From Eledone cirrhosa (Eukaryota), in NCBI GenBank assembly GCA_964016885.1, contig OZ024742.1:362638001-362702000 (forward strand): 64,000 nucleotides of DNA, read 5' to 3'. Each line of letters begins with the position of its first letter. Within the stretch, counting starts at the first letter, position 1. Of this stretch, positions 1 to 54,827 are shown in pieces. The position numbers and the translations under genes were made by a program. A model generated the notes under the pieces. The model worked only from the letters and a program-made list of their open reading frames with translations, ran no database searches and had not been told where the DNA came from.

Positions 1-224
1 AGAAAGCCCATTAAAGAAAAGCCACGGTGATCCTGACCACCAGGGAAATTGTCCTCTCCCAGTTTTCCACCTTCAATTTACAGGCATATACTCAGAGTAG
101 GTCCACTCACTCGGGCCATTCTTGCCTCTCTCACCCATCTTTCAACAAAAAGCTGGGAAGAGAGCACCTCCCTCTCTACCCTGATTTTCCTTTTCAAATG
201 AAATTGCAAAAAGTTAATCAGGGC
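1..224 (-). mobile_element. 5'-truncated L1/Tx1-type element: 3'UTR plus the last ORF2 codons; diverged copy; continues left of the window
   Basis: Aligns by eye to 478-700 with many substitutions; breaks off at ...aatcagggc directly into (ATA)n. Confidence 0.85.

Positions 225-289
<65 letters not shown>
225..289. repeat. (TAA)n target/spacer tract
   Basis: Pure trinucleotide run. Confidence 0.99.
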
Positions 290-291
<2 letters not shown>

Positions 292-551
292 TTTCTTTAT
301 TAACCACAAGGGTTTACATAAAGTAGACATTAAAGACAGTGCAGGACAATGCAGGACGGTACAAATGGGCATTTCTGCGTGTAAAAAAACAAAAACAGAG
401 GATGTAACAAAAATAACAATGAAAATAACAATGAAAAATTCCCCAATAGGGGGGAGACTTCGGAGGGACATTTGTGGAGAAAGCCCAGTAAAAAGCCACA
501 ATGACCCTGACCACCAAGGCAAGTGCCCTCTCCCAGTTTTCCACCTTTAGT

Positions 552-3500
552 TTACAGATATATACTCAGAGTCGGCCCATTCACTCGGGCCATTCTTGCT
601 TCTCTCACCCATCTTTCAACAAAATGCTGGGAAGAGAGCACTTCCTTCTCTACTCTGATTTTCCTTTTCAAATGAAATTTGAAAAAGTCAATCAGAGCAT
701 CACCGAAGAGGTAAGTGCTCGTCTTCAGCCCTTTCAAACGTGTCCACCATACTATCTCTTTCGCCATGGCCACCAGACAGATAAAAACTGCCTGCCCTTC
801 CCGGCTAAAGGAGGAGGGCGGGGCAATCCTCACGATAGACTCAGATGATAGCTGGATCCGTCCTAAACGCGACAGCAGGTGTTCGACATAAACCCACAAG
901 TCAGCAATTTTCGGACACTGGACGAGTGCGTGCAGGACGGTTTCGTCGCCCTGCGCGCATCTCGGACATGCCCGGCTGACGGCACCTCCATGCCTGTAGA
1001 GTTTATCCCGAACTGGCAAGGCTCCTCGGTAGCACTGCCAGGCCAGAGATTTCTGGAAGTTGTCCATAGGCCCTGGCCCGAAAGTTCTTCCGAAGAGATT
1101 GGCTAGTTGATTTTCGTCGACGCCTAGAGTTTCCCCAAGTACGTCGTCGCTCTTCCCCTCCACTAATCCTCTATAGAACGCCGAGGTGGAGTTTCCACCG
1201 ATCACATTGCCCGATTGGTCGAGGGCTGTGAGCGCCTGAAGACATTCCAGTCTCCAGGCGCTCCCTCTCGGTCTTCGCTTGACCCAGGACTGCAGCTCCG
1301 TCAAGGAAACGAGCTGGGGAAAAACGCGTCTAGCAAACGGCGACCACACCTGATCACCGTCGAGGAAGAGGTGGAGATGTCGTAGCCTGAGCGCGTGCCT
1401 GCGCATCATCAGCCACGGCATGCCCAGCCCTCCACGTAGCGGGTGTTGACAACAGATGGACCGCCTGACCATCGGAGCACGTCCCTTCCACAAAAAGCGA
1501 AAGAGCAAACGCTCCAGCGCAGTCAGGCGAGGCTTAGGACAAGGTACGACGGTTAGGCGGTAGCAGATGACAGACGCGATGTACGCGTTAGCCACCTCCG
1601 CTCGACCTTTCAGGGATAGCTTCCTCTCCGCCCATTTCTGGGTGAGAGAAGCCACCCTGCTCGTCACCTCGTCCCAGTTTTTGTCCGTCTGGAGGTCCGG
1701 ACCGAACCAGACCCCTAGCAATTTAACCGGTCCGTCCGTCCAGCGCCCGACGACGCTGTTGGACGGCATGGACCTGCCTCTCCAGGTGCCGAGCTGCAGG
1801 CCCACTGACTTTTCCTGGTTGATCATTGCTCCTGTCACCGCTTCGTATTCTCTTAGTGTAGTGCCGATCGCCTCGATGTGTTTGGCGTTCGACACCACTA
1901 CGGTGACATCGTCCGCATATGCTGACACGGATCTTCCGCATCCTAGTTCGCGCGGGACTCCCCTCAACGTCTCCAGTTTGTGCAGTAATGGCTCGAGAGT
2001 CAATACGTACAAGAGGGACGAGAGGGGACATCCTTGGCGGACCGAGCGCATGATGTTGAACGGTTCCGACAGGTGACCGTTCACTCTCACCACAGAGCAG
2101 ATGTCGCTGTGCATGGCAGCGATCCAGCCTCTGAAGACGGGCCCAAAGCCAGCCGCCCTCAGGACTGCCGCTAGGTAACGATGGTCGACCCTATCGAAAG
2201 CTTTCGACTGATCTAAATTGATCAAGGACCCACCCGTGCCAGGTTCCCTAGCTACCCTCTCTACGATGTATCGCATGAGGTGGAGGTTGTCGTGGATGGA
2301 TCTGTCGGGAATGGCGCATGTCTGCGCCTCTCCCACCAGACCACCAACGACAAGCGCCAACCTCTTTGCTAGCACCTTGGCCAAAATCTTAAACTCTGTG
2401 TTTAGCAGAGTTATGGGCCGGAAATTGTCTATGTTATCCCCCTTGTTCGGATCCTTTCTCAGCAGTGCCACCGCTCCTCGGCTCACAGAACTGGGAATTC
2501 TCCCGTTCTGTTGCCAGTTGCAGTAGACGTCCGCCAAGAGGCCTCCGAACAAGTCTGGCATCTGTACGTAAAGTTCATAGGGCAGACCATCCAAACCAGG
2601 CGATTTACCCCTTGTGCAGCCAGTCATTGCCTCCCGTACTTCAGCGGCTGTTATCGGCTTTTCGCAACACTTCGCCTCAGTGGCCGAGAGCCGCGGCAGT
2701 CCGTCGAGGTAGACACTAAAGTCCATCCCTCTACCCGGCCCCCCGCTGCCCCCGAACAGCTGAGCGAAGTGTCGCTGAAAAGCTTCACACATTTGCCCGG
2801 GATCGAGTAGCATGCGCCCGTCGTGGTCCACCAAAGACCGGATCGTGGCTTTGTTGCCACGACGCGCCTCCGCCACTCGGGCCCATTGAACGGCTTTCGT
2901 CCCCTCGTGTCTGAGAGCACGCACCCTAGCTCTGACAACGCAGCCTTCGTGCTTTGCATTGAAGAATTGGTCAAGGGCCAATTTCGCCGCAAGCACGTCG
3001 GTCGCAATGCCTTTGCTAAGCGCCTCGTCTAATTTTCTAACTAGTTCTCCCTCTGCTCTATTTTTCTCTATTGCTAAAGCCTTACTAAACCTAATCGATT
3101 CTATTCTAATCGCTCTTTTCAGAGCAAACCACCACTTGTTGTTGACGATGGCCCCCGTCAACGCCCGCTTAACTAGTTCGCTAATCCGGTCTCTGTAGGC
3201 CTTGCGCGCTGGTAAGGACGCGTTTAGCTTCCAGTAGCCGGGTCCTCGTCTATGAAGCCTATCTAAGTCAAGCACACAGGTCACGAATTTGTGGTCCGTG
3301 TAGCTGACTATCTTGAATTGTGGACAGCCTATGCTAGACCTATCTATTTCCCTACAAAATACTCTTTCTAGATATGATCTGGATGACCCTATGCGGTTTG
3401 TCCAAGTCCACATTGGCACATTCGGGAAATCCAATCGGTACCTGTCAGACAGTTCAAAACGCCTGAGCAGGTTGGTGAGGCTCTTGCACCCTCCACCCCT

Positions 3501-3971
3501 ATCCGCTAATCCCACACAGTCCCAGCGTGCATCTAAGATCCCGTTCCAGTCGCCCACTAACACTAAAGAGCGGGACGTTCCAAGAAAGGTCTCCAGACGC
3601 CGGAAGAAATCAGGCCGCCCTGTTCCTGTCGGGGCATAGACGGCCACTAGCCTGAAAGCTTGCCCGTCTCCGCTGGTTACGTCCAGCACCACCAGCTTAC
3701 CCTCTGGGTCCAGGAAGATGGCCCGTATGGCGAGATCCAAACCTCTCCGAAAAAGCACAGCAACTCCTCCACCCGATCCAGGACGGCTGGGAGATGCGTA
3801 CACGTCGTAGCCGCCGAAGATCGGTGCGAAGGCCCGTGCTTCGGAGATTCTGGTCTCGCTGATGGCCACTACATCTATGTTTAGTGACCTGAGGTCGTTG
3901 AGCAGGTGACCCTGCTTCCATGACGACCCCAAGCCACGCGCATTTATGCTGCCTATTCTGAGTGAGGTCAT
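552..3971 (-). CDS. ORF2: apurinic-like endonuclease + reverse transcriptase + C-terminal CCHC (1139 aa)
   Basis: APE motifs SINARGL, SETR, VGDWN, YTDH; RT motifs KSPGLDG, FRPITLLN, DQSKAFD, RQGCPLS, YADD; CPRC-x8-H-x4-C. Confidence 0.96.
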   Translation of the reverse strand: MTSLRIGSINARGLGSSWKQGHLLNDLRSLNIDVVAISETRISEARAFAPIFGGYDVYASPSRPGSGGGVAVLFRRGLDLAIRAIFLDPEGKLVVLDVTSGDGQAFRLVAVYAPTGTGRPDFFRRLETFLGTSRSLVLVGDWNGILDARWDCVGLADRGGGCKSLTNLLRRFELSDRYRLDFPNVPMWTWTNRIGSSRSYLERVFCREIDRSSIGCPQFKIVSYTDHKFVTCVLDLDRLHRRGPGYWKLNASLPARKAYRDRISELVKRALTGAIVNNKWWFALKRAIRIESIRFSKALAIEKNRAEGELVRKLDEALSKGIATDVLAAKLALDQFFNAKHEGCVVRARVRALRHEGTKAVQWARVAEARRGNKATIRSLVDHDGRMLLDPGQMCEAFQRHFAQLFGGSGGPGRGMDFSVYLDGLPRLSATEAKCCEKPITAAEVREAMTGCTRGKSPGLDGLPYELYVQMPDLFGGLLADVYCNWQQNGRIPSSVSRGAVALLRKDPNKGDNIDNFRPITLLNTEFKILAKVLAKRLALVVGGLVGEAQTCAIPDRSIHDNLHLMRYIVERVAREPGTGGSLINLDQSKAFDRVDHRYLAAVLRAAGFGPVFRGWIAAMHSDICSVVRVNGHLSEPFNIMRSVRQGCPLSSLLYVLTLEPLLHKLETLRGVPRELGCGRSVSAYADDVTVVVSNAKHIEAIGTTLREYEAVTGAMINQEKSVGLQLGTWRGRSMPSNSVVGRWTDGPVKLLGVWFGPDLQTDKNWDEVTSRVASLTQKWAERKLSLKGRAEVANAYIASVICYRLTVVPCPKPRLTALERLLFRFLWKGRAPMVRRSICCQHPLRGGLGMPWLMMRRHALRLRHLHLFLDGDQVWSPFARRVFPQLVSLTELQSWVKRRPRGSAWRLECLQALTALDQSGNVIGGNSTSAFYRGLVEGKSDDVLGETLGVDENQLANLFGRTFGPGPMDNFQKSLAWQCYRGALPVRDKLYRHGGAVSRACPRCAQGDETVLHALVQCPKIADLWVYVEHLLSRLGRIQLSSESIVRIAPPSSFSREGQAVFICLVAMAKEIVWWTRLKGLKTSTYLFGDALIDFFKFHLKRKIRVEKEVLSSQHFVERWVREARMARVNGPTLSIYL

Positions 3972-4006
3972 GTTTAAAATAGAGTGGAAAAGATGGGAAA
4001 GACCAC

Positions 4007-6103
4007 TTACCGTACTTTTGGTAGAGGAGGGATGGTTTTTACATCCCTTTTCACTTGATCGTCTGGTGAAGGGACCGTTGAATCGTCCCTTCGGCTGGTC
4101 GTCGGCTCTTCTAAGAGAATGTCTGAGTATACTCTTCGATTGATGGTTCCTCCTAGGTCCCTGAAATCACCAACTGCGTTGGGGAATTTCGTTTTAATAT
4201 TTGTGTATTGTTTCTGTGCTATTTTTAGCAGTCTTATGTTAGTTGGCGTTTTGATTGGTGCTGGTATTATGTAGTCCTGTTGTGAAATGTCTGTGTGTTC
4301 AATTATGTAAGTCATTAGTTTCTTGTTGTGTGTATTTATTGCCGTGCATTTGTTTTTCTGGGGGTGGGGTGTGGTTCTGCTATTTTCTTGTCGTTGTTGC
4401 TGGGTGTGTGTGTTTTGTTGTTGTGTTTGCGATGTTGGTGCTTGTGGTGGTGGTGTTGAAGGTGTTGTTGGCGGTGGGGTTGTCGCCGGTGGTGATGGTG
4501 GCGCTAGTGTGGGTGGTGATGGTGTTGGTGTTGTTGCTGCTGTGGGTCTCTTTGCAGTAGACTTTACCCTTTTCTCATTTCTTTCCTCACTTTTCAAAGG
4601 CGACGATGCGCTGCTTCTGCGTTTGTGCCTTCTTACGACCTTTTGCCATCTCTCTCCCACCTCACACTCCATGTCTGATTCTGTGAGGTCGGGGAGGGGT
4701 ACCAACTCCACTCTTTCACTTGTTGTTGTTGGTGATGTTTGCACTGGAGTCTCTGTTGCAGCTGCATTTGGTATTGCTGTTGTTGTTGTTAGTATTTCCA
4801 CTGCTGCTGCTGTTTTTGATTTCCGTGGAGTGGGTATGGGTGCCACGGGCCTATCGTTCCTGGTTGCCGCTTGTCCTGTTGCTGGTAGCCGTGGAGCCGG
4901 ATTCGGAAGGAGGGGGGTTTTCTCCTTTCTCAGGGTCTTCTCGTTGCAGAAGGCCCTGAGGTGAGTCTTCGATCCACAGCGAAAGCATTTCGGGCGTTTG
5001 CCCTCAACACTTATGGGCAGTTGAGTGCCGTTATCGAAGTCTATCACATCCGGGATAGCTTCGATGCACTCCTGGTTGGTTTGGATTAGCATCTCAATGG
5101 AGGAGCCGACCCAATCTTCTCTTACTTTTTTTTGTACTTGCAGTACAGTTGTTTTGTCCTCGATTCCGACGAGGACAGACGCGGCCAGCCAAGAAGGGGT
5201 CATTCCGGGGGGGACGTGGGTCAGTTTGACCCTCACAATTTTTTGCCCACAGTAGGAGGGCACCAACACCATTTCCTCGCTCCTTAGGGTCACTACTGAT
5301 TGGGCCTTTGCCTCCTGGGGTGTGGCAAAAAGTACGTCTACGGTGGCATATTTTTTGCCTCGGGTGATGTGCGTTTTCCGCTGCCACACAGACCCCAAGG
5401 CTTTTTGTATTTGGGCCTCTGTGGCTCTTTCCACCCTACGGGATTTTGTACTTACTGTACGGTACGTGACCGTACAGTGCTCTTGGGTTTCGAAAAAATT
5501 TTTCGCTGCCTTGCAGATTGCTCGGTGTCCGTTCTTTGTCACCATCTTCTTCGCTTCCTCTAATTCCTCATTTGTTATGAGGATTGTTTCCAAGTTTTTC
5601 GCAATACCTGCAAATGAGATTGGTTTTTCTCTGCTGTTGTTGTTGTCGTCAGAGCTGCTGGTACTTTTGTTGTTGCTGCAGGTACTACGACTACTGCCTC
5701 CGCCGCTGTTGCTGTGGTTGTTGTTGGTGTTGCTGCTGCTAATGCTGTTGTTGTTTATGCTGCTGGTGATGCTGTTTCGGCTGCTACTGTTGTTTTCATT
5801 GTCACTGTTGCTGTTGTTATTACGGCTGCTACTGCTATTATTCCTGACGTCAGACGAATGAACTGGGTTTTCGTATTTCCCGCACACCTGTTTCGTCGCT
5901 GTCGTCGTCGTCGTGGAGAAACCTTGCACGCTTTGCACGAGACTTTTCTTTTCTTTCGTCACTTGCGAAAGAGAAGGGAGGGAGAGAGACACATTTAAAG
6001 AAGGGAGGGAGAGAGACAATCTTCTCTCTGCTGTAGTGATGATTGAGGAAGAAGAAGACGGAATGAGTGGGAGTGACGTATGAAATTTCTTTTTCGTAGC
6101 CAT
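4007..6103 (-). CDS. ORF1 gag-like nucleic-acid-binding protein (698 aa)
   Basis: CFRCGSKTHLRAFC (CX2CX4HX4C) knuckle, RRM-like central region, S/N-rich and P/T-rich low-complexity flanks; upstream of ORF2. Confidence 0.9.
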   Translation of the reverse strand: MATKKKFHTSLPLIPSSSSSIITTAERRLSLSLPSLNVSLSLPSLSQVTKEKKSLVQSVQGFSTTTTTATKQVCGKYENPVHSSDVRNNSSSSRNNNSNSDNENNSSSRNSITSSINNNSISSSNTNNNHSNSGGGSSRSTCSNNKSTSSSDDNNNSREKPISFAGIAKNLETILITNEELEEAKKMVTKNGHRAICKAAKNFFETQEHCTVTYRTVSTKSRRVERATEAQIQKALGSVWQRKTHITRGKKYATVDVLFATPQEAKAQSVVTLRSEEMVLVPSYCGQKIVRVKLTHVPPGMTPSWLAASVLVGIEDKTTVLQVQKKVREDWVGSSIEMLIQTNQECIEAIPDVIDFDNGTQLPISVEGKRPKCFRCGSKTHLRAFCNEKTLRKEKTPLLPNPAPRLPATGQAATRNDRPVAPIPTPRKSKTAAAVEILTTTTAIPNAAATETPVQTSPTTTSERVELVPLPDLTESDMECEVGERWQKVVRRHKRRSSASSPLKSEERNEKRVKSTAKRPTAATTPTPSPPTLAPPSPPATTPPPTTPSTPPPQAPTSQTQQQNTHTQQQRQENSRTTPHPQKNKCTAINTHNKKLMTYIIEHTDISQQDYIIPAPIKTPTNIRLLKIAQKQYTNIKTKFPNAVGDFRDLGGTINRRVYSDILLEEPTTSRRDDSTVPSPDDQVKRDVKTIPPLPKVR

Positions 6104-6317
6104 GTTGTTTTTTGTTTAAAATGAATATTGGGTACAAAACCCCAATAACTGGTTATTTAACCCCGAAGGGCCAAATAACGGACAGAAAGACCCCTCTCAC
6201 GAGGAGGAGGGTGTCTTTATCAACAATTTGGTTCAAGTTTTAAACAATTTACAATTGTTTTAACGGTCAAAAATTACTATACCTTACAGAGCCGAGCCTC
6301 CGTCAACCATGGCATTC

Positions 6318-6365
<48 letters not shown>
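6318..6365. repeat. (TAA)n target/spacer tract
   Basis: Pure run. Confidence 0.99.
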
Positions 6366-7817
6366 TGTCCGTATTTTCAGCAGTGATATATGTATGCAGT
6401 TTGGTATTGGTAAATGTGGAGTCATTGTGATGAAGAGGGGTAGGTTGAGCAGAAGTAACGGGATCCAGATACCAACAGGTGAGATGATAAAGGAAATTGA
6501 CTCTGAGGAAGGATACAAGTATTTGGGCGTTCTGGAGGCTGATGGCATAAAGAACAAAAAAATGAAGGAATTGTTAAGAACTGAATACATTCGGAGAGTA
6601 AGGAGCGTATTGAAGTCACACCTGAACAGCAGAAATGCCATAAGCGCAGTAAATTCCCGAGCTGTGTCTATTATTAGGTACAGTGCGGGAATTCTGAGAT
6701 GGAATGTTGCTGAACAAAAAGAAATGGATAGGAAGACTAGGAAGCTATTGACTATCTACAACATGTTCCACAAGAGGAGTGATGTCGATAGACTCTACCT
6801 AAGGAGATCTGAGGGTGGAAGAGGTCTTATCAGCATAGAGGACTGTGTTCAGATGGAGAAAAACAACCTATACAAATACGTGACCTATAGTAAGGAGCCA
6901 ATGCTCAGAACTGTACTGAAGGAGGGGACAGTAGGCCAGGGGATGTCCAGGGAGGAAATAACATCAAGGAGGAAGAGCAGCCTTAAGGGAAAATCCCTTC
7001 ATAGTACCTTCTTTGAGAAAACTGAATTTAGAGATCCACAGACATGGAACTGGTTGAGAAGAGGAGACCTCAAAAAGGCTACAGAAGGAATGCTAATGGC
7101 TGCGCAGGAGCAGGCCCTCAAAACGAAGTGGTTGAAGCACCATATCTACAAGGAGGAGGCTAGCCCACTGTGCAGGATCTGTGGAGAGAGAGAGGAGACT
7201 GTGGCTCACATTGTGTCCGAGTGTAAACACCTAGCCCAGACCCACTATAAGGGCTGGAGACACGATGTGATAGGCAGGGTGATCCACTGGCACCTGTGCA
7301 AAGTAAACAATCTACCACATTCTGAGAAATGTTATGAGCATAGGCCAGAGGCGGTGATGGAGAACAATCAGGTGAAGGTGCTGTGGGATTTTAGGATACA
7401 GACGGACAAAAAACTGGAACACAATAGACCTGACCTGGTGGTTGTGGACAAAGAAAAAAGATCGTGCCTGATTGTGGATGTGGCCTGCCCGTTCGACACG
7501 AGAGTGCAAGAGAAGGAGAGGGAGAAAATTAACCGATACCAGGACCTAAAGTGGGAGGTGAAAAGGATTTGGAACTGCCATGAAGTCAAAGTGATCCCGA
7601 TTGTCATAGGCGCACTGTGGACTATCTCCAAAAGTTTCCAGGGATGGTTAAAGAAAATCGGCCCCTTCACGCATTTTGGAATGCTTCAAAAGGCATGCTT
7701 GCTTGGAACAGCAAGAACCCTCCGATACGTCCTGAATATCTGAGGCTGCAGGTAGTGGCTTGATATTCAATCCAACGGACTTTCCAGTTAACCAACATCA
7801 ATGACTGAGATTCATGG
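6366..7817 (+). mobile_element. 5'-truncated R4/Dong-clade element, family D1 (copy D1-1)
   Basis: Starts mid-RT at tgtccgtatt (cf. 24308); open frame 6394-7743 with CRIC-x8-H-x4-C, RHD and RPDLVVVD..D..EK RLE motifs; short 3'UTR then AATAAC(AAT)n. Confidence 0.93.
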
Positions 7818-7829
7818 AATAACAATAAC

Positions 7830-7872
<43 letters not shown>
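7818..7872. repeat. AATAACAATAAC(AAT)n tail/spacer
   Basis: Direct reading. Confidence 0.98.
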
Positions 7873-7876
<4 letters not shown>

Positions 7877-9525: not shown

Positions 9526-9561
9526 AATAACAACAATAATAATAATAATAATAATAATAAT
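9526..9561. repeat. (AAT)n tail/spacer with AAC units
   Basis: Direct reading. Confidence 0.98.
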
Positions 9562-9805
9562 GTTTTCTTTATTAACCACAAGGGTTTACATAAAGTAGAC
9601 ATTAAGGACAGTACAGGACAATACAGGACGGTACAAATGGGCATTTCTGTGTGTAAAAAAAACGGAGGTTGGAATAAAATAACAAAGAAAAATTCCCCAA
9701 TAGGGGGGAGACTTCCGAGGGACATTTGTGGAGAAAGCCCATTAAAAGACCACAGTGGCCCTGACCACCAGGGCAAGTGCCCTCTCCCAGTTTTCCACCT
9801 TTAAT

Positions 9806-15533: not shown

Positions 15534-15535
<2 letters not shown>

Positions 15536-42500: not shown

Positions 42501-42568
42501 TACAATTGTTATAGCGGTCAAAATTTACAATACCTTATAGAGCCGAGCCTCCGTCAACCATAGCATTC
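36552..42568 (-). mobile_element. Full-length degenerate Tx1 family A (copy A4)
   Basis: Both termini present; ORF2 (36802-40185) and ORF1 (40221-42354) broken by stops, frameshifts and small deletions; YADD reads YEDD. Confidence 0.93.

Positions 42569-42625
<57 letters not shown>
42569..42625. repeat. (TAA)n spacer
   Basis: Pure run. Confidence 0.99.
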
Positions 42626-42627
<2 letters not shown>

Positions 42628-42888
42628 TTTCTTTATTAACCACAAGGGTTTACATAAAGTAGACATTAAGGACAGTGCAGGACAATGCAGGACGGTACAA
42701 ATGGGCATTTCTGCGTGTAAAAAAAACAAAAACAGAGGATGTAACAAAAATAACAATGAAAATAACAATGAAAAATTCCCCAATAGGGGGGAGACTTCGG
42801 AGGGACATTTGTGGAGAAAGCCCAGTAAAAAGCCACAATGACCCTGACCACCAAGGCAAGTGCCCTCTCCCAGTTTTCCACCTTTAGT

Positions 42889-46308: not shown

Positions 46309-46343
46309 GTTTAAAATAGAGTGGAAAAGATGGGAAAGACCAC

Positions 46344-48473
46344 TTACCGTACTTTTGGTAGAGGAGGGATGGTTTTTACATCCCTTTTCACTTGATCGTC
46401 TGGTGAAGGGACCGTTGAATCGTCCCTTCGGCTGGTCGTCGGCTCTTCTAAGAGAATGTCTGAATATACTCTTCGATTAATGGTTCCTCCTAGGTCCCTG
46501 AAATCACCAACTGCGTTGGGGAATTTCGTTTTAATGTTTGTGTATTGTTTCTGTGCTATTTTTAGCAGTCTTATGTTAGTTGGCGTTTTGATTGGTGCTG
46601 GTATTATGTAGTCCTGTTGTGAAATGTCTGTGTGTTCAATTATGTAAGTCATTAGTTTCTTGTTGTGTGTGTTTATTGCCGTGCATTTGTTTTTCTGGGA
46701 GTGGGGTGTGGTTCTGCTATTTTCTTGTCGTTGTTGCTGGGTGTGTGTGTTTTGTTGTTGTGTTTGCGATGTTGGTGCTTGTGGTGGTGGTGTTGAAGGT
46801 GTTGTTGGCGGTGGGGTTGTCGCCGGTGGTGATGGTGGTGCTGGTGTGGGTGGTGATGGTGTTGGTGGTGTTGCTGCTGTGGGTCTCTTTGCAGTAGACT
46901 TTACCCTTTTCTCATTTCTTTCCTCCCTTTTCAAAGGCGACGATGCGCTGCTTCTGCGTTTGTGCCTTCTTGAGACCTTTTGCCATCCCTCTCCCACCTC
47001 ACACTCCATGTCTGATTCTGTAAGGTCGGGGAGGGGTACCAGCTCCACTCTTTCACTTGTTGTTGTTGGTGATGTTTGCACTGGAGTCTCTGTTGCAGCT
47101 GCATTTGGTATTGCTGTTGTTGTTGTTAATATTTCCACTGCTGCTGCTGTCTTTGATTTCCGTGGAGTGGGTATGGGTGCCACGGACCTATCGTTCCTGG
47201 TTGCCGCTTGTCCTGTTGCTGGTAGCCGTGGAACCGGATTCGGGAGGAGGGGGGTTTTCTCCTTTCTCATGGTCTTCTCGTTGCAGAAGGCCCTGAGGTG
47301 AGTCTTCGATCCACAGCGAAAGCATTTCGGGCGTTTGCCCTCAACACTTATGGGCAGTTGAGTGCCGTTATCGAAGTCTATCACATCCGGGATAGCTTCG
47401 ATGCACTCCTGGTTGGTTTGGATTAGCATCTCAATGGAGGAGCCGACCCAATCTTCTCTTACTTTTTTCTGTACTTGCAGTACAGTTGTTTTGTCCTCGA
47501 TTCCGACGAGGACAGACGCGGCCAGCCAAGAAGGGGTCATTCCGGGGGGGACGTGGGTCAGTTTGACCCTCACAATTTTTTGCCCGCAGTAGGAGGGCAC
47601 CAACACCATTTCCTCGCTCCTTAGGGTCACTACTGATTGGGCCTTTGCCTCCTGGGGTGTGGCAAAAAGTACGTCTACGGTGGCGTATTTTTTGCCTCGG
47701 GTGATGTGCGTTTTTCTCTGCCACACAGACCCCAAGGCTTTTTGTATTTGGGCCTCTGTGGCTCTTTCCACCCTACGGGATTTTGTACTTACTGTACGGT
47801 ACGTGACCGTACAGTGCTCTTGGGTTTCGAAAAAATTTTTCGCTGCCTTGCAGATTGCTCGGTGTCCGTTCTTTGTCACCATCTTCTTCGCTTCCTCTAA
47901 TTCCTCATTTGTTATGAGGATTGTTTCCAGGTTTTTCGCAATACCTGCAAATGAGATTGGTTTTTCTCTGCTGTTGTTGTTGTCGTCAGAGCTGCTGGTA
48001 CTTTTGTTGTTGCTGCAGGTACTACGACTACTGCCTCCGCCGCTGTTGCTGTGGTTGTTGTTGGTGTTGCTGCTGCTAATGCTGTTGTTGTTTATGCTGC
48101 TGGTGATGCTGTTGCGGCTGCTACTGTTGTTTTCATTGTCACTGTTGCTGTTGTTATTACGGCTGCTACTGCTATTATTCCTGACCTCAGACGAATGAAC
48201 TGGGTTTTCGTATTTCCCGCACACCTGTTTCGTCGCTGTCGTCGTCGTCGTGGAGAAACCTTGCACGCTTTGCACGAGACTTTTCTTTTCTTTCGTCGCT
48301 TGCGAAAGAGAAGGGAGGGAGAGAGACACATTTAAAGAAGGGAGGGAGAGAGACAATCTTCTCTCTGCTGTAGTGATGATTGAGGAAGAAGAAGACGGAA
48401 TGAGTGGGAGTGACGTATGAAATTTCTTTTTCGTAGCCATGTTTTTTTGTTTAAAATGAAATTTTGGGTACAA
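46344..48473 (-). CDS. ORF1 gag-like CCHC protein (probable ATG at 48440, MATKKK)
   Basis: Near-identical to 4007-6103. Confidence 0.9.
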   Translation of the reverse strand: MYPKFHFKQKNMATKKKFHTSLPLIPSSSSSIITTAERRLSLSLPSLNVSLSLPSLSQATKEKKSLVQSVQGFSTTTTTATKQVCGKYENPVHSSEVRNNSSSSRNNNSNSDNENNSSSRNSITSSINNNSISSSNTNNNHSNSGGGSSRSTCSNNKSTSSSDDNNNSREKPISFAGIAKNLETILITNEELEEAKKMVTKNGHRAICKAAKNFFETQEHCTVTYRTVSTKSRRVERATEAQIQKALGSVWQRKTHITRGKKYATVDVLFATPQEAKAQSVVTLRSEEMVLVPSYCGQKIVRVKLTHVPPGMTPSWLAASVLVGIEDKTTVLQVQKKVREDWVGSSIEMLIQTNQECIEAIPDVIDFDNGTQLPISVEGKRPKCFRCGSKTHLRAFCNEKTMRKEKTPLLPNPVPRLPATGQAATRNDRSVAPIPTPRKSKTAAAVEILTTTTAIPNAAATETPVQTSPTTTSERVELVPLPDLTESDMECEVGEGWQKVSRRHKRRSSASSPLKREERNEKRVKSTAKRPTAATPPTPSPPTPAPPSPPATTPPPTTPSTPPPQAPTSQTQQQNTHTQQQRQENSRTTPHSQKNKCTAINTHNKKLMTYIIEHTDISQQDYIIPAPIKTPTNIRLLKIAQKQYTNIKTKFPNAVGDFRDLGGTINRRVYSDILLEEPTTSRRDDSTVPSPDDQVKRDVKTIPPLPKVR

Positions 48474-48653
48474 AACCCCAATAACTGGTTATTTAACCCC
48501 GAAGGGCCAAATAACGGACAGAAAGACCCCTCTCACGAGGAGGAGGGTGTCTTTATCAACAATTTGGTTCAAGTTTTAAACAATTTACAATTGTTTTAAC
48601 GGTTAAAAATTACTATACCTTACAGAGCCGAGCCTCCGTCAACTATGGCATTC

Positions 48654-48716
<63 letters not shown>
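48654..48716. repeat. (TAA)n spacer
   Basis: Pure run. Confidence 0.99.
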
Positions 48717-48718
<2 letters not shown>

Positions 48719-48978
48719 TTTCTTTATTAACCACAAGGGTTTACATAAAGTAGACATTAAGGACAGTGCAGGACAATGCAGGACGGTACAAATGGGCATT
48801 TCTGCGTGTAAAAAAACAAAAACAGAGGATGTAACAAAAATAACAATGAAAATAACAATGAAAAATTCCCCAATAGGGGGGAGACTTCGGAGGGACATTT
48901 GTGGAGAAAGCCCAGTAAAAAGCCACAATGACCCTGACCACCAAGGCAAGTGCCCTCTCCCAGTTTTCCACCTTTAGT

Positions 48979-51900
48979 TTACAGATATATACTCAGAGTC
49001 GGCCCATTCACTCGGGCCATTCTTGCTTCTCTCACCCATCTTTCAACAAAATGCTGGGAAGAGAGCACTTCCTTTTCTACTCTGATTTTCCTTTTCAAAT
49101 GAAATTTGAAAAAGTCAATCAGAGCATCACCGAAGAGGTAAGTGCTCGTCTTCAGCCCTTTCAAACGTGTCCACCATACTATCTCTTTCGCCATGGCCAC
49201 CAGACAGATAAAAACTGCCTGCCCTTCCCGGCTAAAGGAGGAGGGCGGGGCAATCCTCACGATAGACTCAGATGATAGCTGGATCCGTCCTAAACGCGAC
49301 AGCAGGTGTTCGACATAAACCCACAAGTCAGCAATTTTCGGACACTGGACGAGTGCGTGCAGGACGGTTTCGTCGCCCTGCGCGCATCTCGGACATGCCC
49401 GGCTGACGGCACCTCCATGCCTGTAGAGTTTATCCCGAACTGGCAAGGCTCCTCGGTAGCACTGCCAGGCCAGAGATTTCTGGAAGTTGTCCATAGGCCC
49501 TGGCCCGAAAGTTCTTCCGAAGAGATTGGCTAGTTGATTTTCGTCGACGCCTAGAGTTTCCCCAAGTACGTCGTCGCTCTTCCCCTCCACTAATCCTCTA
49601 TAGAACGCCGAGGTGGAGTTTCCACCGATCACATTGCCCGATTGGTCGAGGGCTGTGAGCGCCTGAAGACATTCCAGTCTCCAGGCGCTCCCTCTCGGTC
49701 TTCGCTTGACCCAGGACTGCAGCTCCGTCAAGGAAACGAGCTGGGGAAAAACGCGTCTAGCAAACGGCGACCACACCTGATCACCGTCGAGGAAGAGGTG
49801 GAGATGTCGTAGCCTGAGCGCGTGCCTGCGCATCATCAGCCACGGCATGCCCAGCCCTCCACGTAGCGGGTGTTGACAACAGATGGACCGCCTGACCATC
49901 GGAGCACGTCCCTTCCACAAAAAGCGAAAGAGCAAACGCTCCAGCGCAGTCAGGCGAGGCTTAGGACAAGGTACGACGGTTAGGCGGTAGCAGATGACAG
50001 ACGCGATGTACGCGTTAGCCACCTCCGCTCGACCTTTCAGGGATAGCTTCCTCTCCGCCCATTTCTGGGTGAGAGAAGCCACCCTGCTCGTCACCTCGTC
50101 CCAGTTTTTGTCCGTCTGGAGGTCCGGACCGAACCAGACCCCTAGCAATTTAACCGGTCCGTCCGTCCAGCGCCCGACGACGCTGTTGGACGGCATGGAC
50201 CTGCCTCTCCAGGTGCCGAGCTGCAGGCCCACTGACTTTTCCTGGTTGATCATTGCTCCTGTCACCGCTTCGTATTCTCTTAGTGTAGTGCCGATCGCCT
50301 CGATGTGTTTGGCGTTCGACACCACTACGGTGACATCGTCCGCATATGCTGACACGGATCTTCCGCATCCTAGTTCGCGCGGGACTCCCCTCAACGTCTC
50401 CAGTTTGTGCAGTAATGGCTCGAGAGTCAATACGTACAAGAGGGACGAGAGGGGACATCCTTGGCGGACCGAGCGCATGATGTTGAACGGTTCCGACAGG
50501 TGACCGTTCACTCTCACCACAGAGCAGATGTCGCTGTGCATGGCAGCGATCCAGCCTCTGAAGACGGGCCCAAAGCCAGCCGCCCTCAGGACTGCCGCTA
50601 GGTAACGATGGTCGACCCTATCGAAAGCTTTCGACTGATCTAAATTGATCAAGGACCCACCCGTGCCAGGTTCCCTAGCTACCCTCTCTACGATGTATCG
50701 CATGAGGTGGAGGTTGTCGTGGATGGATCTGTCGGGAATGGCGCATGTCTGCGCCTCTCCCACCAGACCACCAACGACAAGCGCCAACCTCTTTGCTAGC
50801 ACCTTGGCCAAAATCTTAAACTCTGTGTTTAGCAGAGTTATGGGCCGGAAATTGTCTATGTTATCCCCCTTGTTCGGATCCTTTCTCAGCAGTGCCACCG
50901 CTCCTCGGCTCACAGAACTGGGAATTCTCCCGTTCTGTTGCCAGTTGCAGTAGACGTCCGCCAAGAGGCCTCCGAACAAGTCTGGCATCTGTACGTAAAG
51001 TTCATAGGGCAGACCATCCAAACCAGGCGATTTACCCCTTGTGCAGCCAGTCATTGCCTCCCGTACTTCAGCGGCTGTTATCGGCTTTTCGCAACACCTC
51101 GCCTCAGTGGCCGAGAGCCGCGGCAGCCCGTCGAGGTAGACACTAAAGTCCATCCCTCTACCCGGCCCCCCGCTGCCCCCGAACAGCTGAGCGAAGTGTC
51201 GCTGAAAAGCTTCACACATTTGCCCGGGATCGAGTAGCATGCGCCCGTCGTGGTCCACCAAAGACCGGATCGTGGCTTTGTTGCCACGACGCGCCTCCGC
51301 CACTCGGGCCCATTGAACGGCTTTCGTCCCCTCGTGTCTGAGAGCACGCACCCTAGCTCTGACAACGCAGCCTTCGTGCTTTGCATTGAAGAATTGGTCA
51401 AGGGCCAATTTCGCCGCAAGCACGTCGGTCGCAATGCCTTTGCTAAGCGCCTCGTCTAATTTTCTAACTAGTTCTCCCTCTGCTCTATTTTTCTCTATTG
51501 CTAAAGCCTTACTAAACCTAATCGATTCTATTCTAATCGCTCTTTTCAGAGCAAACCACCACTTGTTGTTGACGATGGCCCCCGTCAACGCCCGCTTAAC
51601 TAGTTCGCTAATCCGGTCTCTGTAGGCCTTGCGCGCTGGTAAGGACGCGTTTAGCTTCCAGTAGCCGGGTCCTCGTCTATGAAGCCTATCTAAGTCAAGC
51701 ACACAGATCACGAATTTGTGGTCCGTGTAGCTGACTATCTTGAATTGTGGACAGCCTATGCTAGACCTATCTATTTCCCTACAAAATACTCTATCTAGAT
51801 ATGATCTGGATGACCCTATGCGGTTTGTCCAAGTCCACATTGGCACATTCGGGAAATCCAATCGGTACCTGTCAGACAGTTCAAAACGCCTGAGCAGGTT

Positions 51901-52398
51901 GGTGAGGCTCTTGCACCCTCCACCCCTATCCGCTAATCCCACACAGTCCCAGCGTGCATCTAAGATCCCGTTCCAGTCGCCCACTAACACTAAAGAGCGC
52001 GACGTTCCAAGAAAGGTCTCCAGACGCCGGAAGAAATCAGGCCGCCCTGCTCCTGTCGGGGCATAGACGGCCACTAGCCTGAAAGCTTGCCCGTCTCCGC
52101 TGGTCACGTCCAGCACCACCAGCTTACCCTCTGGGTCCAGGAAGATGGCCCGTATGGCGAGATCCAAACCTCTCCGAAAAAGCACAGCAACTCCTCCACC
52201 CGATCCAGGACGGCTGGGAGATGCGTACACATCGTAGCCGCCGAAGATCGGTGCGAAGGCCCGTGCTTCGGAGATTCTGGTCTCGCTGATGGCCACTACA
52301 TCTATGTTTAGTGACCTGAGGTCGTTGAGCAGGTGACCCTGCTTCCATGACGACCCCAAGCCACGCGCATTTATGCTGCCTATTCTGAGTGAGGTCAT
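48979..52398 (-). CDS. ORF2 APE-RT-CCHC (1139 aa)
   Basis: Same motifs as 552-3971. Confidence 0.96.
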   Translation of the reverse strand: MTSLRIGSINARGLGSSWKQGHLLNDLRSLNIDVVAISETRISEARAFAPIFGGYDVYASPSRPGSGGGVAVLFRRGLDLAIRAIFLDPEGKLVVLDVTSGDGQAFRLVAVYAPTGAGRPDFFRRLETFLGTSRSLVLVGDWNGILDARWDCVGLADRGGGCKSLTNLLRRFELSDRYRLDFPNVPMWTWTNRIGSSRSYLDRVFCREIDRSSIGCPQFKIVSYTDHKFVICVLDLDRLHRRGPGYWKLNASLPARKAYRDRISELVKRALTGAIVNNKWWFALKRAIRIESIRFSKALAIEKNRAEGELVRKLDEALSKGIATDVLAAKLALDQFFNAKHEGCVVRARVRALRHEGTKAVQWARVAEARRGNKATIRSLVDHDGRMLLDPGQMCEAFQRHFAQLFGGSGGPGRGMDFSVYLDGLPRLSATEARCCEKPITAAEVREAMTGCTRGKSPGLDGLPYELYVQMPDLFGGLLADVYCNWQQNGRIPSSVSRGAVALLRKDPNKGDNIDNFRPITLLNTEFKILAKVLAKRLALVVGGLVGEAQTCAIPDRSIHDNLHLMRYIVERVAREPGTGGSLINLDQSKAFDRVDHRYLAAVLRAAGFGPVFRGWIAAMHSDICSVVRVNGHLSEPFNIMRSVRQGCPLSSLLYVLTLEPLLHKLETLRGVPRELGCGRSVSAYADDVTVVVSNAKHIEAIGTTLREYEAVTGAMINQEKSVGLQLGTWRGRSMPSNSVVGRWTDGPVKLLGVWFGPDLQTDKNWDEVTSRVASLTQKWAERKLSLKGRAEVANAYIASVICYRLTVVPCPKPRLTALERLLFRFLWKGRAPMVRRSICCQHPLRGGLGMPWLMMRRHALRLRHLHLFLDGDQVWSPFARRVFPQLVSLTELQSWVKRRPRGSAWRLECLQALTALDQSGNVIGGNSTSAFYRGLVEGKSDDVLGETLGVDENQLANLFGRTFGPGPMDNFQKSLAWQCYRGALPVRDKLYRHGGAVSRACPRCAQGDETVLHALVQCPKIADLWVYVEHLLSRLGRIQLSSESIVRIAPPSSFSREGQAVFICLVAMAKEIVWWTRLKGLKTSTYLFGDALIDFFKFHLKRKIRVEKEVLSSQHFVERWVREARMARVNGPTLSIYL

Positions 52399-52433
52399 GT
52401 TTAAAATAGAGTGGAAAAGATGGGAAAGACCAC

Positions 52434-54563
52434 TTACCGTACTTTTGGTAGAGGAGGGATGGTTTTTACATCCCTTTTCACTTGATCGTCTGGTGAAGGG
52501 ACCGTTGAATCGTCCCTTCGGCTGGTCGTCGGCTCTTCTAAGAGAATGTCTGAATATACTCTTCGATTAATGGTTCCTCCTAGGTCCCTGAAATCACCAA
52601 CTGCGTTGGGGAATTTCGTTTTAATGTTTGTGTATTGTTTCTGTGCTATTTTTAGCAGTCTTATGTTAGTTGGCGTTTTGATTGGTGCTGGTATTATGTA
52701 GTCCTGTTGTGAAATGTCTGTGTGTTCAATTATGTAAGTCATTAGTTTCTTGTTGTGTGTGTTTATTGCCGTGCATTTGTTTTTCTGGGAGTGGGGTGTG
52801 GTTCTGCTATTTTCTTGTCGTTGTTGCTGGGTGTGTGTGTTTTGTTGTTGTGTTTGCGATGTTGGTGCTTGTGGTGGTGGTGTTGAAGGTGTTGTTGGCG
52901 GTGGGGTTGTCGCCGGTGGTGATGGTGGTGCTGGTGTGGGTGGTGATGGTGTTGGTGGTGTTGCTGCTGTGGGTCTCTTTGCAGTAGACTTTACCCTTTT
53001 CTCATTTCTTTCCTCCCTTTTCAAAGGCGACGATGCGCTGCTTCTGCGTTTGTGCCTTCTTGAGACCTTTTGCCATCCCTCTCCCACCTCACACTCCATG
53101 TCTGATTCTGTAAGGTCGGGGAGGGGTACCAGCTCCACTCTTTCACTTGTTGTTGTTGGTGATGTTTGCACTGGAGTCTCTGTTGCAGCTGCATTTGGTA
53201 TTGCTGTTGTTGTTGTTAATATTTCCACTGCTGCTGCTGTCTTTGATTTCCGTGGAGTGGGTATGGGTGCCACGGACCTATCGTTCCTGGTTGCCGCTTG
53301 TCCTGTTGCTGGTAGCCGTGGAACCGGATTCGGGAGGAGGGGGGTTTTCTCCTTTCTCATGGTCTTCTCGTTGCAGAAGGCCCTGAGGTGAGTCTTCGAT
53401 CCACAGCGAAAGCATTTCGGGCGTTTGCCCTCAACACTTATGGGCAGTTGAGTGCCGTTATCGAAGTCTATCACATCCGGGATAGCTTCGATGCACTCCT
53501 GGTTGGTTTGGATTAGCATCTCAATGGAGGAGCCGACCCAATCTTCTCTTACTTTTTTCTGTACTTGCAGTACAGTTGTTTTGTCCTCGATTCCGACGAG
53601 GACAGACGCGGCCAGCCAAGAAGGGGTCATTCCGGGGGGGACGTGGGTCAGTTTGACCCTCACAATTTTTTGCCCGCAGTAGGAGGGCACCAACACCATT
53701 TCCTCGCTCCTTAGGGTCACTACTGATTGGGCCTTTGCCTCCTGGGGTGTGGCAAAAAGTACGTCTACGGTGGCGTATTTTTTGCCTCGGGTGATGTGCG
53801 TTTTTCTCTGCCACACAGACCCCAAGGCTTTTTGTATTTGGGCCTCTGTGGCTCTTTCCACCCTACGGGATTTTGTACTTACTGTACGGTACGTGACCGT
53901 ACAGTGCTCTTGGGTTTCGAAAAAATTTTTCGCTGCCTTGCAGATTGCTCGGTGTCCGTTCTTTGTCACCATCTTCTTCGCTTCCTCTAATTCCTCATTT
54001 GTTATGAGGATTGTTTCCAGGTTTTTCGCAATACCTGCAAATGAGATTGGTTTTTCTCTGCTGTTGTTGTTGTCGTCAGAGCTGCTGGTACTTTTGTTGT
54101 TGCTGCAGGTACTACGACTACTGCCTCCGCCGCTGTTGCTGTGGTTGTTGTTGGTGTTGCTGCTGCTAATGCTGTTGTTGTTTATGCTGCTGGTGATGCT
54201 GTTGCGGCTGCTACTGTTGTTTTCATTGTCACTGTTGCTGTTGTTATTACGGCTGCTACTGCTATTATTCCTGACCTCAGACGAATGAACTGGGTTTTCG
54301 TATTTCCCGCACACCTGTTTCGTCGCTGTCGTCGTCGTCGTGGAGAAACCTTGCACGCTTTGCACGAGACTTTTCTTTTCTTTCGTCGCTTGCGAAAGAG
54401 AAGGGAGGGAGAGAGACACATTTAAAGAAGGGAGGGAGAGAGACAATCTTCTCTCTGCTGTAGTGATGATTGAGGAAGAAGAAGACGGAATGAGTGGGAG
54501 TGACGTATGAAATTTCTTTTTCGTAGCCATGTTTTTTTGTTTAAAATGAAATTTTGGGTACAA
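52434..54563 (-). CDS. ORF1 gag-like CCHC protein (probable ATG at 54530)
   Basis: Translation identical to 46344-48473. Confidence 0.9.
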   Translation of the reverse strand: MYPKFHFKQKNMATKKKFHTSLPLIPSSSSSIITTAERRLSLSLPSLNVSLSLPSLSQATKEKKSLVQSVQGFSTTTTTATKQVCGKYENPVHSSEVRNNSSSSRNNNSNSDNENNSSSRNSITSSINNNSISSSNTNNNHSNSGGGSSRSTCSNNKSTSSSDDNNNSREKPISFAGIAKNLETILITNEELEEAKKMVTKNGHRAICKAAKNFFETQEHCTVTYRTVSTKSRRVERATEAQIQKALGSVWQRKTHITRGKKYATVDVLFATPQEAKAQSVVTLRSEEMVLVPSYCGQKIVRVKLTHVPPGMTPSWLAASVLVGIEDKTTVLQVQKKVREDWVGSSIEMLIQTNQECIEAIPDVIDFDNGTQLPISVEGKRPKCFRCGSKTHLRAFCNEKTMRKEKTPLLPNPVPRLPATGQAATRNDRSVAPIPTPRKSKTAAAVEILTTTTAIPNAAATETPVQTSPTTTSERVELVPLPDLTESDMECEVGEGWQKVSRRHKRRSSASSPLKREERNEKRVKSTAKRPTAATPPTPSPPTPAPPSPPATTPPPTTPSTPPPQAPTSQTQQQNTHTQQQRQENSRTTPHSQKNKCTAINTHNKKLMTYIIEHTDISQQDYIIPAPIKTPTNIRLLKIAQKQYTNIKTKFPNAVGDFRDLGGTINRRVYSDILLEEPTTSRRDDSTVPSPDDQVKRDVKTIPPLPKVR

Positions 54564-54743
54564 AACCCCAATAACTGGTTATTTAACCCCGAAGGGCCAA
54601 ATAACGGACAGAAAGACCCCTCTCACGAGGAGGAGGGTGTCTTTATCAACAATTTGGTTCAAGTTTTAAACAATTTACAATTGTTTTAACGGTTAAAAAT
54701 TACTATACCTTACAGAGCCGAGCCTCCGTCAACTATGGCATTC

Positions 54744-54811
<68 letters not shown>

Positions 54812-54827
54812 GAAGAAGAAGAAGAAG
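54744..54827. repeat. (AAT)n(GAA)5 compound microsatellite; right edge of the array
   Basis: Direct reading; non-array sequence follows. Confidence 0.98.

What the first reader, a model, noticed from the sequence alone, without database searches (positions are those of the whole stretch)
1..54827. >=55-kb self-regenerating (TAA)n retrotransposon array shared by two unrelated clades with strictly opposite strand polarity
Seen: 14 insertions, and every intact junction is a (TAA)n tract. No element lies inside another's body. All 7 APE-type (L1/Tx1) copies are minus and all 7 RLE-type (R4/Dong) copies are plus. Copies range from intact to heavily decayed. Known: in target-primed reverse transcription the nicked strand sets orientation, and Dong of Bombyx targets TAA repeats. 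Inference: the APE enzyme primes from the TAA strand and the RLE enzyme from the TTA strand of the same microsatellite. Each insertion leaves target on both sides, so one microsatellite grew into a multi-family safe-haven array. This parallels telomeric retrotransposon arrays and could mark a functional chromatin domain or small-RNA source.
Basis: partly seen in the sequence, partly recalled or inferred. Interest (0 to 1): 0.85.

Follow-up and report, generated by a model that had tools for sequence, protein, structure and literature searches.

The report
Two retrotransposon clades share TAA microsatellites
Two unrelated kinds of jumping gene sit in TAA microsatellites across this genome, almost without exception facing opposite ways, and this 55-kb run of them is likely one of the longer pile-ups of a genome-wide process rather than a special chromosome domain.

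Summary
The array is real. The window holds 7 Tx1-like (APE) copies on minus and 7 Dong/R4-like (RLE) copies on plus; 12 of 13 internal junctions are (TAA)n and one is a deletion fusion. It ends about 260 bp left of the window, so it is about 55.1 kb with 15 members. It sits between two copies of an otherwise unique segment, one ending in an empty TAA/(GAA)n site.

The polarity rule is genome-wide: 2291 of 2357 A 5' ends run into TAA, and no sampled end abutted the opposite strand. The locus is not special. These families have at least 21,000 3' ends, about half of roughly 83,000 long TAA runs touch one, and arrays of about 55 and 49 kb occur on another contig. It is 16 Mb from the contig end with no telomeric repeats.

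Each ingredient has a precedent: Dong in TAA, microsatellite-specific Tx1 (Kibi, Koshi), opposite TRAS/SART polarity. Not found in my searches: a TAA-specific Tx1 lineage sharing a microsatellite with Dong, and clustering 5-8 times stronger than equal use of tracts. New variant of a known kind.

The parts
1..225 (-). 5'-truncated Tx1-like A-type stub (402 bp in all; begins at -175, left of the window)
   Evidence: 87% to the A 3' end; truncated 5' end abuts (TAA)21
226..288 (.). (TAA)21 junction
289..6319 (-). A1, full-length Tx1-like copy (ORF1 4007-6115, ORF2 552-4166; YLERV where A6/A7 read YLDRV)
6320..6364 (.). (TAA)15 junction
6365..7831 (+). D2a, 5'-truncated Dong/R4-like copy
7832..7873 (.). 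(TAA)14 junction
7874..9536 (+). D2b, 5'-truncated Dong/R4-like copy with an internal deletion near 9245
9537..9560 (.). (TAA)8 junction
9561..15477 (-). B, Tx1-like copy with A-type ORF2 (95%) and a different ORF1/5' UTR (ORF1 core 54% aa to A); a recurrent family, frameshifted here
15478..15534 (.). (TAA)19 junction
15535..15587 (+). 53-bp 3' stub of D1
15588..15647 (.). (TAA)20 junction
15648..20499 (+). D2c, full-length Dong/R4-like copy, ORF 16986-20411 broken by a stop at 19389-19391
20500..20544 (.). (TAA)15 junction
20545..25773 (+). D2d, full-length Dong/R4-like copy, ORF 22260-25685 (1141 aa stop to stop; RT, CCHC knuckle, RLE)
25774..25794 (.). (TAA)7 junction
25795..27620 (+). D1a, 5' part of a D1 copy, cut by the deletion at 27619
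27619..31494 (-). A4, 5' part of an A copy; its 3' 2.2 kb, the TAA tract and D1's 3' part were lost in a deletion with 2-bp overlap
31495..31605 (.). (TAA)9+(TAA)27 junction
31606..36520 (+). D1b, full-length decayed copy of a second RLE family (32-40% aa to D2, shares about 400 bp of 5' end at 75%)
36521..36547 (.). (TAA)9 junction
36548..42570 (-). A5, oldest A copy (4.9% from A1/A6/A7, 13-15 gap events)
42571..42624 (.). (TAA)18 junction
42625..48655 (-). A6, intact young Tx1-like copy (ORF1 46344-48488, ORF2 42889-46476)
48656..48715 (.). (TAA)20 junction
48716..54745 (-). A7, intact young Tx1-like copy (ORF1 52434-54578, ORF2 48979-52566)
54746..54826 (.). (TAA)22(GAA)5, right end of the array
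54827..55949 (.). Right copy of segment X; the left copy (with a 640-bp deletion) lies at -777..-262; its 25-mer start occurs only at these two places in the genome
55950..56009 (.). (GAA)20 after a single TAA: the empty paralogue of the site that holds the array

Best explanation
Tx1-like (APE) and Dong/R4-like (RLE) LINE families of this genome lie in (TAA)n tracts in fixed opposite orientation, likely because Tx1 nicks and primes on the TAA-reading strand and Dong on the TTA-reading strand, and this 55-kb array is likely the long tail of a genome-wide rich-get-richer process. Shown: the junctions, the polarity, thousands of dispersed copies, similar arrays elsewhere, and an empty paralogous site. 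Inferred: (a) the primer strands, from target-primed reverse transcription; (b) for Tx1, a nick at the T/A step as in TRAS1 and L1, helped by pairing with a read-through (UUA)n RNA end, since AATAAA sits 7 nt before the repeat so cleavage would fall inside it, and no poly(A) is seen at the junctions; (c) every insertion turns one tract into two, and junction tracts tend to be longer, so occupied sites attract more insertions; (d) unequal exchange adds duplications and deletions. No host function is needed.
For: Domains: APE-RT-zf on minus, RT-CCHC-RLE on plus. Genome-wide exact counts: A/B 3' end 7554, D1 3' end 3455, D2 3' end 9992, A 5' end 2357 of which 2291 continue into TAA. First 30 loci of each search: A 5' 30 of 30, D2 5' 29 of 30, D1 3' 30 of 30, D2 3' 30 of 30 and A 3' 24 of 30 abut TAA on the expected strand. 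Over all fetched DNA no end abutted the opposite-strand repeat, and 62 Dong 5'-truncation junctions at many different breakpoints abut TAA, which a 3' tail cannot explain. On C1 (1-53.5 Mb) 94 neighbour pairs lie within 7 kb against 6.8 expected; 90 of 94 share TAA polarity and 33 of 36 Tx1-Dong pairs code on opposite strands. Arrays of about 55 and 49 kb at C1:37.10-37.22 Mb follow the same rule. An urn model tuned to the observed adjacency (101 of 150 ends, hand tally) gives 29-45 arrays of 15 or more members. Members are of different ages, and the young ones have relatives 0.07-0.5% away on another contig.
Against: The simplest form fails: if every tract of 6 or more units were used equally, only 27-33% of ends would have a neighbour and no array would reach 15 members; junction tracts must be 5-8 times more attractive. 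Their greater length (about 13 against 7-9 units, read by hand) explains only part of that. Tx1 5'-truncation junctions are few and mixed: 3 TAA, 10 other (two GAA, one TAG, two TAA-like) and 21 internal breaks of 34. 6 of 30 A 3' ends lack a clear TAA run. One D2 3' end abuts an ATC repeat. Samples come from the start of C1 and are not random. No biochemistry; read data could not span the junctions.
Confidence: 0.8

Rival explanations
1. The array grew mainly by unequal crossing-over, gene conversion and tandem duplication between TAA tracts or element copies, with only a few primary insertions.
For: A6/A7 identical over 2745 bp. A [D1 stub + A] unit is repeated at C1:55.44 Mb, and an A copy with the same internal break followed by the same D1 truncation point recurs in the C1:37.1 Mb array. 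Flank X is duplicated around the array, and its copies differ by 13 of 463 sites, less than the roughly 3-4% decay of A5, which fits exchange between a filled and an empty allele after the array began. This would help explain the excess clustering.
Against: Most members differ in family, truncation point and age. Five A copies in the C1:55.42 Mb array differ from each other by 32-68 sites, as much as from copies elsewhere. Young window copies have near-identical relatives on another contig.
Confidence: 0.1
2. The locus is a host-maintained domain (small-RNA cluster, centromeric or telomere-like chromatin) that attracts or keeps these elements.
For: Clustering is 5-8 times stronger than equal use of tracts predicts, which a chromatin preference or relaxed selection could cause.
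Against: Such arrays are scattered along C1 (106-136 clusters in 53 Mb), two as long as this one. The window is 16.2 Mb from its contig end, with no (TTAGGG)3 or (TTAGG)3 runs in 204 kb. The array has sharp TAA ends in ordinary repeat-rich DNA.
Confidence: 0.05
3. The elements do not seek TAA; they make the tracts as slippage tails, and later copies pair with those tails through their RNA end, so orientation comes from RNA-DNA pairing and not from the endonuclease.
For: About half of long TAA runs touch these elements, and the only 3 runs of 5 or more units in 200 kb of evenly spaced samples were at element ends. Sister Tx1-like families with nearly the same 3' end and a similar endonuclease loop sit in CTAC, TATC and TA repeats. 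Pairing of SART1 RNA with its target has been proposed (PMC7265360, passages).
Against: Both ends of solitary copies and the 5' ends of truncated copies are TAA, so target existed before insertion. TAA use is stable across three Tx1 sub-lineages about 20% apart. Endonuclease swaps move specificity between TRAS1 and SART1 (PMC7265360, passages). Pairing is kept as a helper step in the best explanation.
Confidence: 0.03
4. Assembly artefact: dispersed copies were mis-joined through their TAA tails.
For: Very high copy number; A6/A7 partly identical; the contigs laid could not bridge any junction.
Against: Both ends of the array lie in copies of segment X, found nowhere else in the genome. Tracts are 21-111 bp, short against long reads. 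Members carry private changes. Pairs with only short tracts show the same structure across C1.
Confidence: 0.02

Closest known systems
Dong (R4 clade; Bombyx mori, Anopheles gambiae, Biomphalaria glabrata)
   Same: RLE-type single-ORF LINE in TAA microsatellites (target as listed in PMC3812793, passages); D1 and D2 have TAA at both ends.
   Different: Here at least two families only 32-40% alike in protein share a 5' end and reach thousands of copies, stacked with an APE clade. Clade placement against named Dong sequences was not testable.
Microsatellite-specific Tx1-clade elements Kibi (TC)n, Koshi (TTC)n and crocodilian (TTCC)n/(TTTC)n families
   Same: APE-type, two ORFs, fixed insertion into a simple repeat (PMC4494074, passages); as here, the sense-strand repeat is named pyrimidine-first.
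   Different: Target is (TTA)n on the sense strand; no TTA/TAA-specific Tx1 appeared in my searches. Sister families here use CTAC, TATC and TA repeats.
TRAS and SART in Bombyx (TTAGG)n telomeres
   Same: Two families insert in one tandem repeat in opposite directions and build mixed arrays (PMC10088271 and PMC7265360, passages).
   Different: TRAS and SART are both R1-clade APE elements at telomeres. Here one partner is APE, the other RLE, and the target is an interstitial microsatellite at thousands of sites.
Keno (Tx1, APE) and Utopia (RLE) in U2 snRNA genes
   Same: An APE and an RLE lineage converge on one multicopy target (passages and abstract).
   Different: The target is a gene, not a self-regenerating simple repeat; relative orientation was not stated in the passages read.
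Recently active Dong-R4 and L1-Tx1 LINEs of Octopus vulgaris
   Same: Both classes reported as recently active and abundant, with TE hotspots (PMC13282606, parts 1-2 of 3).
   Different: The parts read give no target or orientation analysis. The host of this window was not determined; the link to octopus is a recalled resemblance, untested.

Membership tests
Tx1 clade (L1 group) | ORF2 with N-terminal APE endonuclease, RT and C-terminal CCHC | tested here: met
   Pfam Exo_endo_phos, RVT_1, zf-RVT; best solved match human L1 ORF2p, E 3e-52 over residues 60-911; motifs present
Tx1 clade (L1 group) | Separate overlapping ORF1 with RNA-binding domain and CCHC knuckle | tested here: met
   714-aa ORF1 with C-x2-C-x4-H-x4-C; Atlas look-alikes are CCHC and ZCCHC3-type RNA-binding clusters at 0.90-0.93, a lead only; Pfam gave no hit at cut-off
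Tx1 clade (L1 group) | Target-sequence preference | tested here: met
   2291 of 2357 A 5' ends run into TAA
Tx1 clade (L1 group) | RT phylogeny groups it with named Tx1 elements | not testable with these tools
   No named Tx1 reference came; the label Tx1 rests on architecture and recall
R4/Dong clade (RLE LINEs) | Single ORF: RT, CX2-3CX7-8HX4C knuckle, PD-(D/E) restriction-like endonuclease with a distant K..Y | tested here: met
   best solved match R2 protein, E 2e-29, aligned through the endonuclease; feature list from PMC5678591 passages
R4/Dong clade (RLE LINEs) | (TAA)n on both sides, as for Dong | tested here: met
R4/Dong clade (RLE LINEs) | N-terminal Myb/zinc-finger region | tested here: inconclusive
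   No Pfam Myb or zinc-finger hit in residues 1-347 at E up to 1; a W-rich stretch resembles R4-type N-termini from recall only
R4/Dong clade (RLE LINEs) | RT phylogeny groups it with named R4/Dong/Rex6 | not testable with these tools
   Homologues carry no informative names
Telomeric retrotransposon arrays (TRAS/SART type) | Two families in one repeat in opposite orientation | tested here: met
Telomeric retrotransposon arrays (TRAS/SART type) | Target is the telomeric repeat, at a chromosome end | tested here: not met
   Target is TAA; 16.2 Mb from the contig end; no telomeric runs in 204 kb
Small-RNA cluster or centromeric domain | Dense small RNAs or CENP-A/heterochromatin marks specific to the locus | not testable with these tools
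   No such data available; no RNA run on record among the holders (a search for DNA holders of the flank)

The most novel reading that the evidence does not exclude
This genome holds a microsatellite-targeting guild. A Tx1 lineage that radiated over TpA-containing repeats (TTA, TA, CTAC, TATC), two Dong families and probably SINE passengers divide (TAA)n by strand. They have occupied about half of all long TAA runs, and they insert 5-8 times more often next to each other than into free tracts because each insertion makes more and better target. That would be a cross-clade, self-amplifying niche that builds 50-kb arrays throughout chromosome arms, with sister endonucleases offering a natural series for target-switch studies.
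Probability: 0.55. Interest if true: 0.55.

Novelty: new variant of a known kind. Interest (0 to 1): 0.42.

Why it matters
Target-specific LINEs are usually described as low-copy guests of rRNA genes, telomeres or a few microsatellites. Here they number in the tens of thousands and shape where sequence accumulates in a 3-Gb genome, with a simple strand rule that can be read from sequence. It makes three things testable: whether the endonuclease or the RNA end sets orientation; how sister Tx1 endonucleases switch between TTA, TA, CTAC and TATC; and whether TE hotspots can arise from target regeneration alone. It also warns that TAA microsatellite markers and insertion-calling in such genomes are confounded. 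The single locus has no sign of a special role.

Tried and rejected
A DNA search of the own genome with the A 3' end returned nothing because common words are skipped; exact patterns were used instead. The D2 5'-plus-TAA pattern gave overlapping counts (512/277) and was not used as a fraction. Protein homologue searches and cluster look-up gave no clade names. The metagenome scan gave 64 loci, mostly under 35% identical; 14 were checked and none showed a TTA/TAA run, so no statement on the target in other species. Laying three contig sets of one sample and one RAD run on the left boundary showed segment X at single-copy depth, but no piece bridged a junction: no verdict on assembly or on an empty allele. 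Equal-use urn model rejected. The idea that D1 specifically targets the 5' end of D2 was dropped: D1 3' ends are followed by A, D1, D2, SINE-like or unique DNA. Telomere link rejected. Weak MBD and surfactant Pfam hits are below cut-off and ignored. PMC9004415 (passages) and PMC9115989 (passages) gave nothing on targets. Three look-ups of earlier findings returned nothing.
Full report
WHAT IS THERE. Window 1-54745 is wall-to-wall LINE sequence. Seven copies read on the minus strand and encode ORF1 (CCHC knuckle) and ORF2 (APE endonuclease, RT, zinc knuckle); seven read on the plus strand and encode one ORF with RT, CCHC knuckle and a restriction-like endonuclease. I call them Tx1-like (A, B) and Dong/R4-like (D1, D2) from architecture and target; no named reference was available for a phylogenetic test. 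Twelve of 13 internal junctions are (TAA)7-27; the one at 27619 fuses D1 body to A body through a 2-bp overlap, a deletion. B has the A ORF2 but another ORF1 (54% aa in the core) and recurs elsewhere. D1 and D2 are only 32-40% alike in protein but share about 400 bp of 5' end.

EXTENT AND EMPTY SITE. The window is G000:C3:362,638,001-362,702,000, 16.2 Mb from the end of a 378.9-Mb contig of a 3.0-Gb genome. Neighbouring DNA shows the array stops at about -261, with one more 44-bp Tx1-like stub, so 15 members in about 55.1 kb. It is bracketed by two copies of a segment X that follows a (GAA)n run; the 25-mer start of X occurs only at these two places. The left copy ends in CAA/TAA units that open the array. 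The right copy ends in one TAA and (GAA)20 with no insertion: an empty paralogue of the site. The X copies differ at 13 of 463 sites, while the oldest member A5 shows about 3-4% decay. The duplication may therefore postdate the first insertions, for example by unequal exchange between the GAA runs of a filled and an empty allele; this is inference from small numbers.

IS THE RULE GENERAL? Yes. Exact end motifs occur 7554 (A/B 3'), 2357 (A 5'), 667 (D2 5'), 3455 (D1 3') and 9992 (D2 3') times, with reversed controls at 0. 2291 of the 2357 A 5' ends continue into TAA. In the first 30 loci of each search, TAA on the expected strand abuts 30 of 30 A 5', 29 of 30 D2 5' (two with a few GAA units between), 30 of 30 D1 3', 30 of 30 D2 3' (one imperfect) and 24 of 30 A 3' ends. 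A scripted tally over all fetched own-genome DNA, which includes TAA-selected loci and some loci seen twice, gave Tx1 3' 49 of 53, Tx1 full 5' 42 of 42, Dong 3' 117 of 120, Dong full 5' 19 of 20, and no end beside the opposite-strand repeat. Of 128 other Dong left ends, 62 were truncations on TAA, 29 continued in the same clade and 37 were other, 18 of these an artefact of a duplication inside my reference. Of 34 other Tx1 right ends, 3 were on TAA, 21 continued and 10 were other, including GAA and TAG repeats. Truncated 5' ends on TAA show that the repeat is a target and not only a tail; this is strong for Dong and thin for Tx1.

IS THE LOCUS SPECIAL? No sign of it. On C1 up to 53.5 Mb, 230 ends form 94 neighbour pairs within 7 kb (6.8 expected, at most 15 in 1000 shuffles); 90 share TAA polarity and 33 of 36 cross-clade pairs code on opposite strands. 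Two exceptions that I looked at have their own separate, oppositely oriented tract. All six clusters fetched, chosen because they looked large, are arrays of the same build; C1:37.10-37.22 Mb holds two of about 55 and 49 kb, each with a few unassigned gaps. No telomeric repeat runs lie in the 204 kb around the window.

HOW STRONG IS THE CLUSTERING? The genome has 83,319 perfect runs of six or more AAT units. In 70 sampled runs from the first 11 Mb of C1, 18 of 30, 10 of 20 and 6-7 of 20 touched a Tx1 or Dong end (two assigned by eye), about half when weighted; many of the rest end SINE-like repeats. By hand tally 101 of 150 element ends have another of these LINEs across the tract. An urn model in which each insertion turns one tract into two gives only 27-33% if all tracts are equal, and no array of 15. 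It needs junction tracts to be 5-8 times more attractive, and then predicts 29-45 arrays of 15 or more. So this array is an expected tail, but plain regeneration is not enough. Longer junction tracts, local duplication (A6/A7; repeated units on C1), chromatin or selection against insertions elsewhere may each add. These estimates are rough.

MECHANISM. By target-primed reverse transcription (established knowledge) the primer is the strand opposite the element's sense, so Tx1 primes on the TAA strand and Dong on the TTA strand. Junctions fit a T/A nick for Tx1, the step cut by TRAS1 (PMC7265360, passages) and, from recall, by L1. In 40 of 42 A/B 3' ends the AATAAA signal is 7 nt from the first TTA (two of the 40 with one changed letter), and no poly(A) intervenes (these ends were picked for having the repeat). 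Normal cleavage 10-30 nt downstream (established knowledge) would leave a (UUA)n end able to pair with the nicked strand. This is inference. Sister Tx1-like copies with nearly the same 3' end sit in CTAC, TATC and TA repeats and form their own branch (100/100), while TTA use is kept in three sub-lineages about 20% apart (TTA rows were found at TAA sites, so biased). All these targets have a T/A step followed by a purine or T on the primer strand.

COMPARISON AND NOVELTY. Dong in TAA repeats and Kibi/Koshi in TC/TTC repeats are listed in PMC3812793 (passages) and PMC4494074 (passages). TRAS and SART insert oppositely in one repeat (PMC10088271, PMC7265360, passages). Keno and Utopia show APE and RLE sharing a target. 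Dong-R4 and L1-Tx1 are recently active in Octopus vulgaris (PMC13282606, parts 1-2 of 3; supplements not read). Six searches aimed at a TAA-specific Tx1 or a shared Tx1/Dong microsatellite array listed no paper reporting one. Kojima and Fujiwara 2004 and Xiong and Eickbush 1993 were seen only as citations, and Repbase was not available, so a prior record cannot be excluded. The host was not determined.

VERDICT. Observation confirmed; targeting and polarity supported genome-wide; special-domain reading not supported. New variant of a known kind, interest 0.42. The value lies in the genome-wide system, not in this one locus.

Noticed in passing
window 63140-64000 (continues in L043); upstream copies in L031-L042 at about -48457, -42272, -40737; L183: A sister group of Tx1-like families (about 70% DNA identity to A) with nearly the same 3' terminus but ending in (TA)n, (CTAC)n or (TATC)n; they form one well-supported branch. 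Their 5' junctions were not checked.
   Followed up: partly
L195, L199, L229, L249, L252, L255 and L187, L198, L217, L239, L245, L246: Two SINE-like repeats end against TAA runs with the same polarity as Tx1; the first has a 3' end resembling that of A, so it may be carried by the Tx1 machinery. They account for many 'free' TAA tracts.
   Followed up: no
window 15648-16460, 20545-21990, 25800-26200, 31606-32050: D1 and D2 share about 400 bp of 5' end at 75% though their proteins are 32-40% alike; D2 5' UTRs hold 325-bp and 680-bp tandem duplications. Suggests 5' end exchange between families.
   Followed up: partly
window 13305-15477: Family B is an A-type ORF2 with a swapped ORF1/5' UTR, with the same switch point in several loci on C1 and C2.
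   Followed up: partly
window 54827-55949 and L031 (-777..-262): 1.1-kb segment duplicated between (GAA)n runs, with a 640-bp deletion in the left copy; it gives an empty-site control.
   Followed up: yes
L023, L124, L129, L131, L027, L062, L016: Some ends abut (GAA)n, (TAG)n or (GAT)n next to or instead of TAA; compound TAA/GAA tracts are common array ends.
   Followed up: partly
L341-L345 (C1:55.42-55.46 Mb): Five full-length A copies at 99% in tandem, with a [D1 stub + A] unit repeated twice.
   Followed up: partly
window 58087-58336 and 61837-62084; 56657-60456: A 250-bp inverted repeat pair (85%) and long (TA)n tracts right of the array.
   Followed up: no
L226, L230, L233, L235, L148: Another repeated sequence with an A-run, a TAA run and a constant downstream end; not classified.
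   Followed up: no
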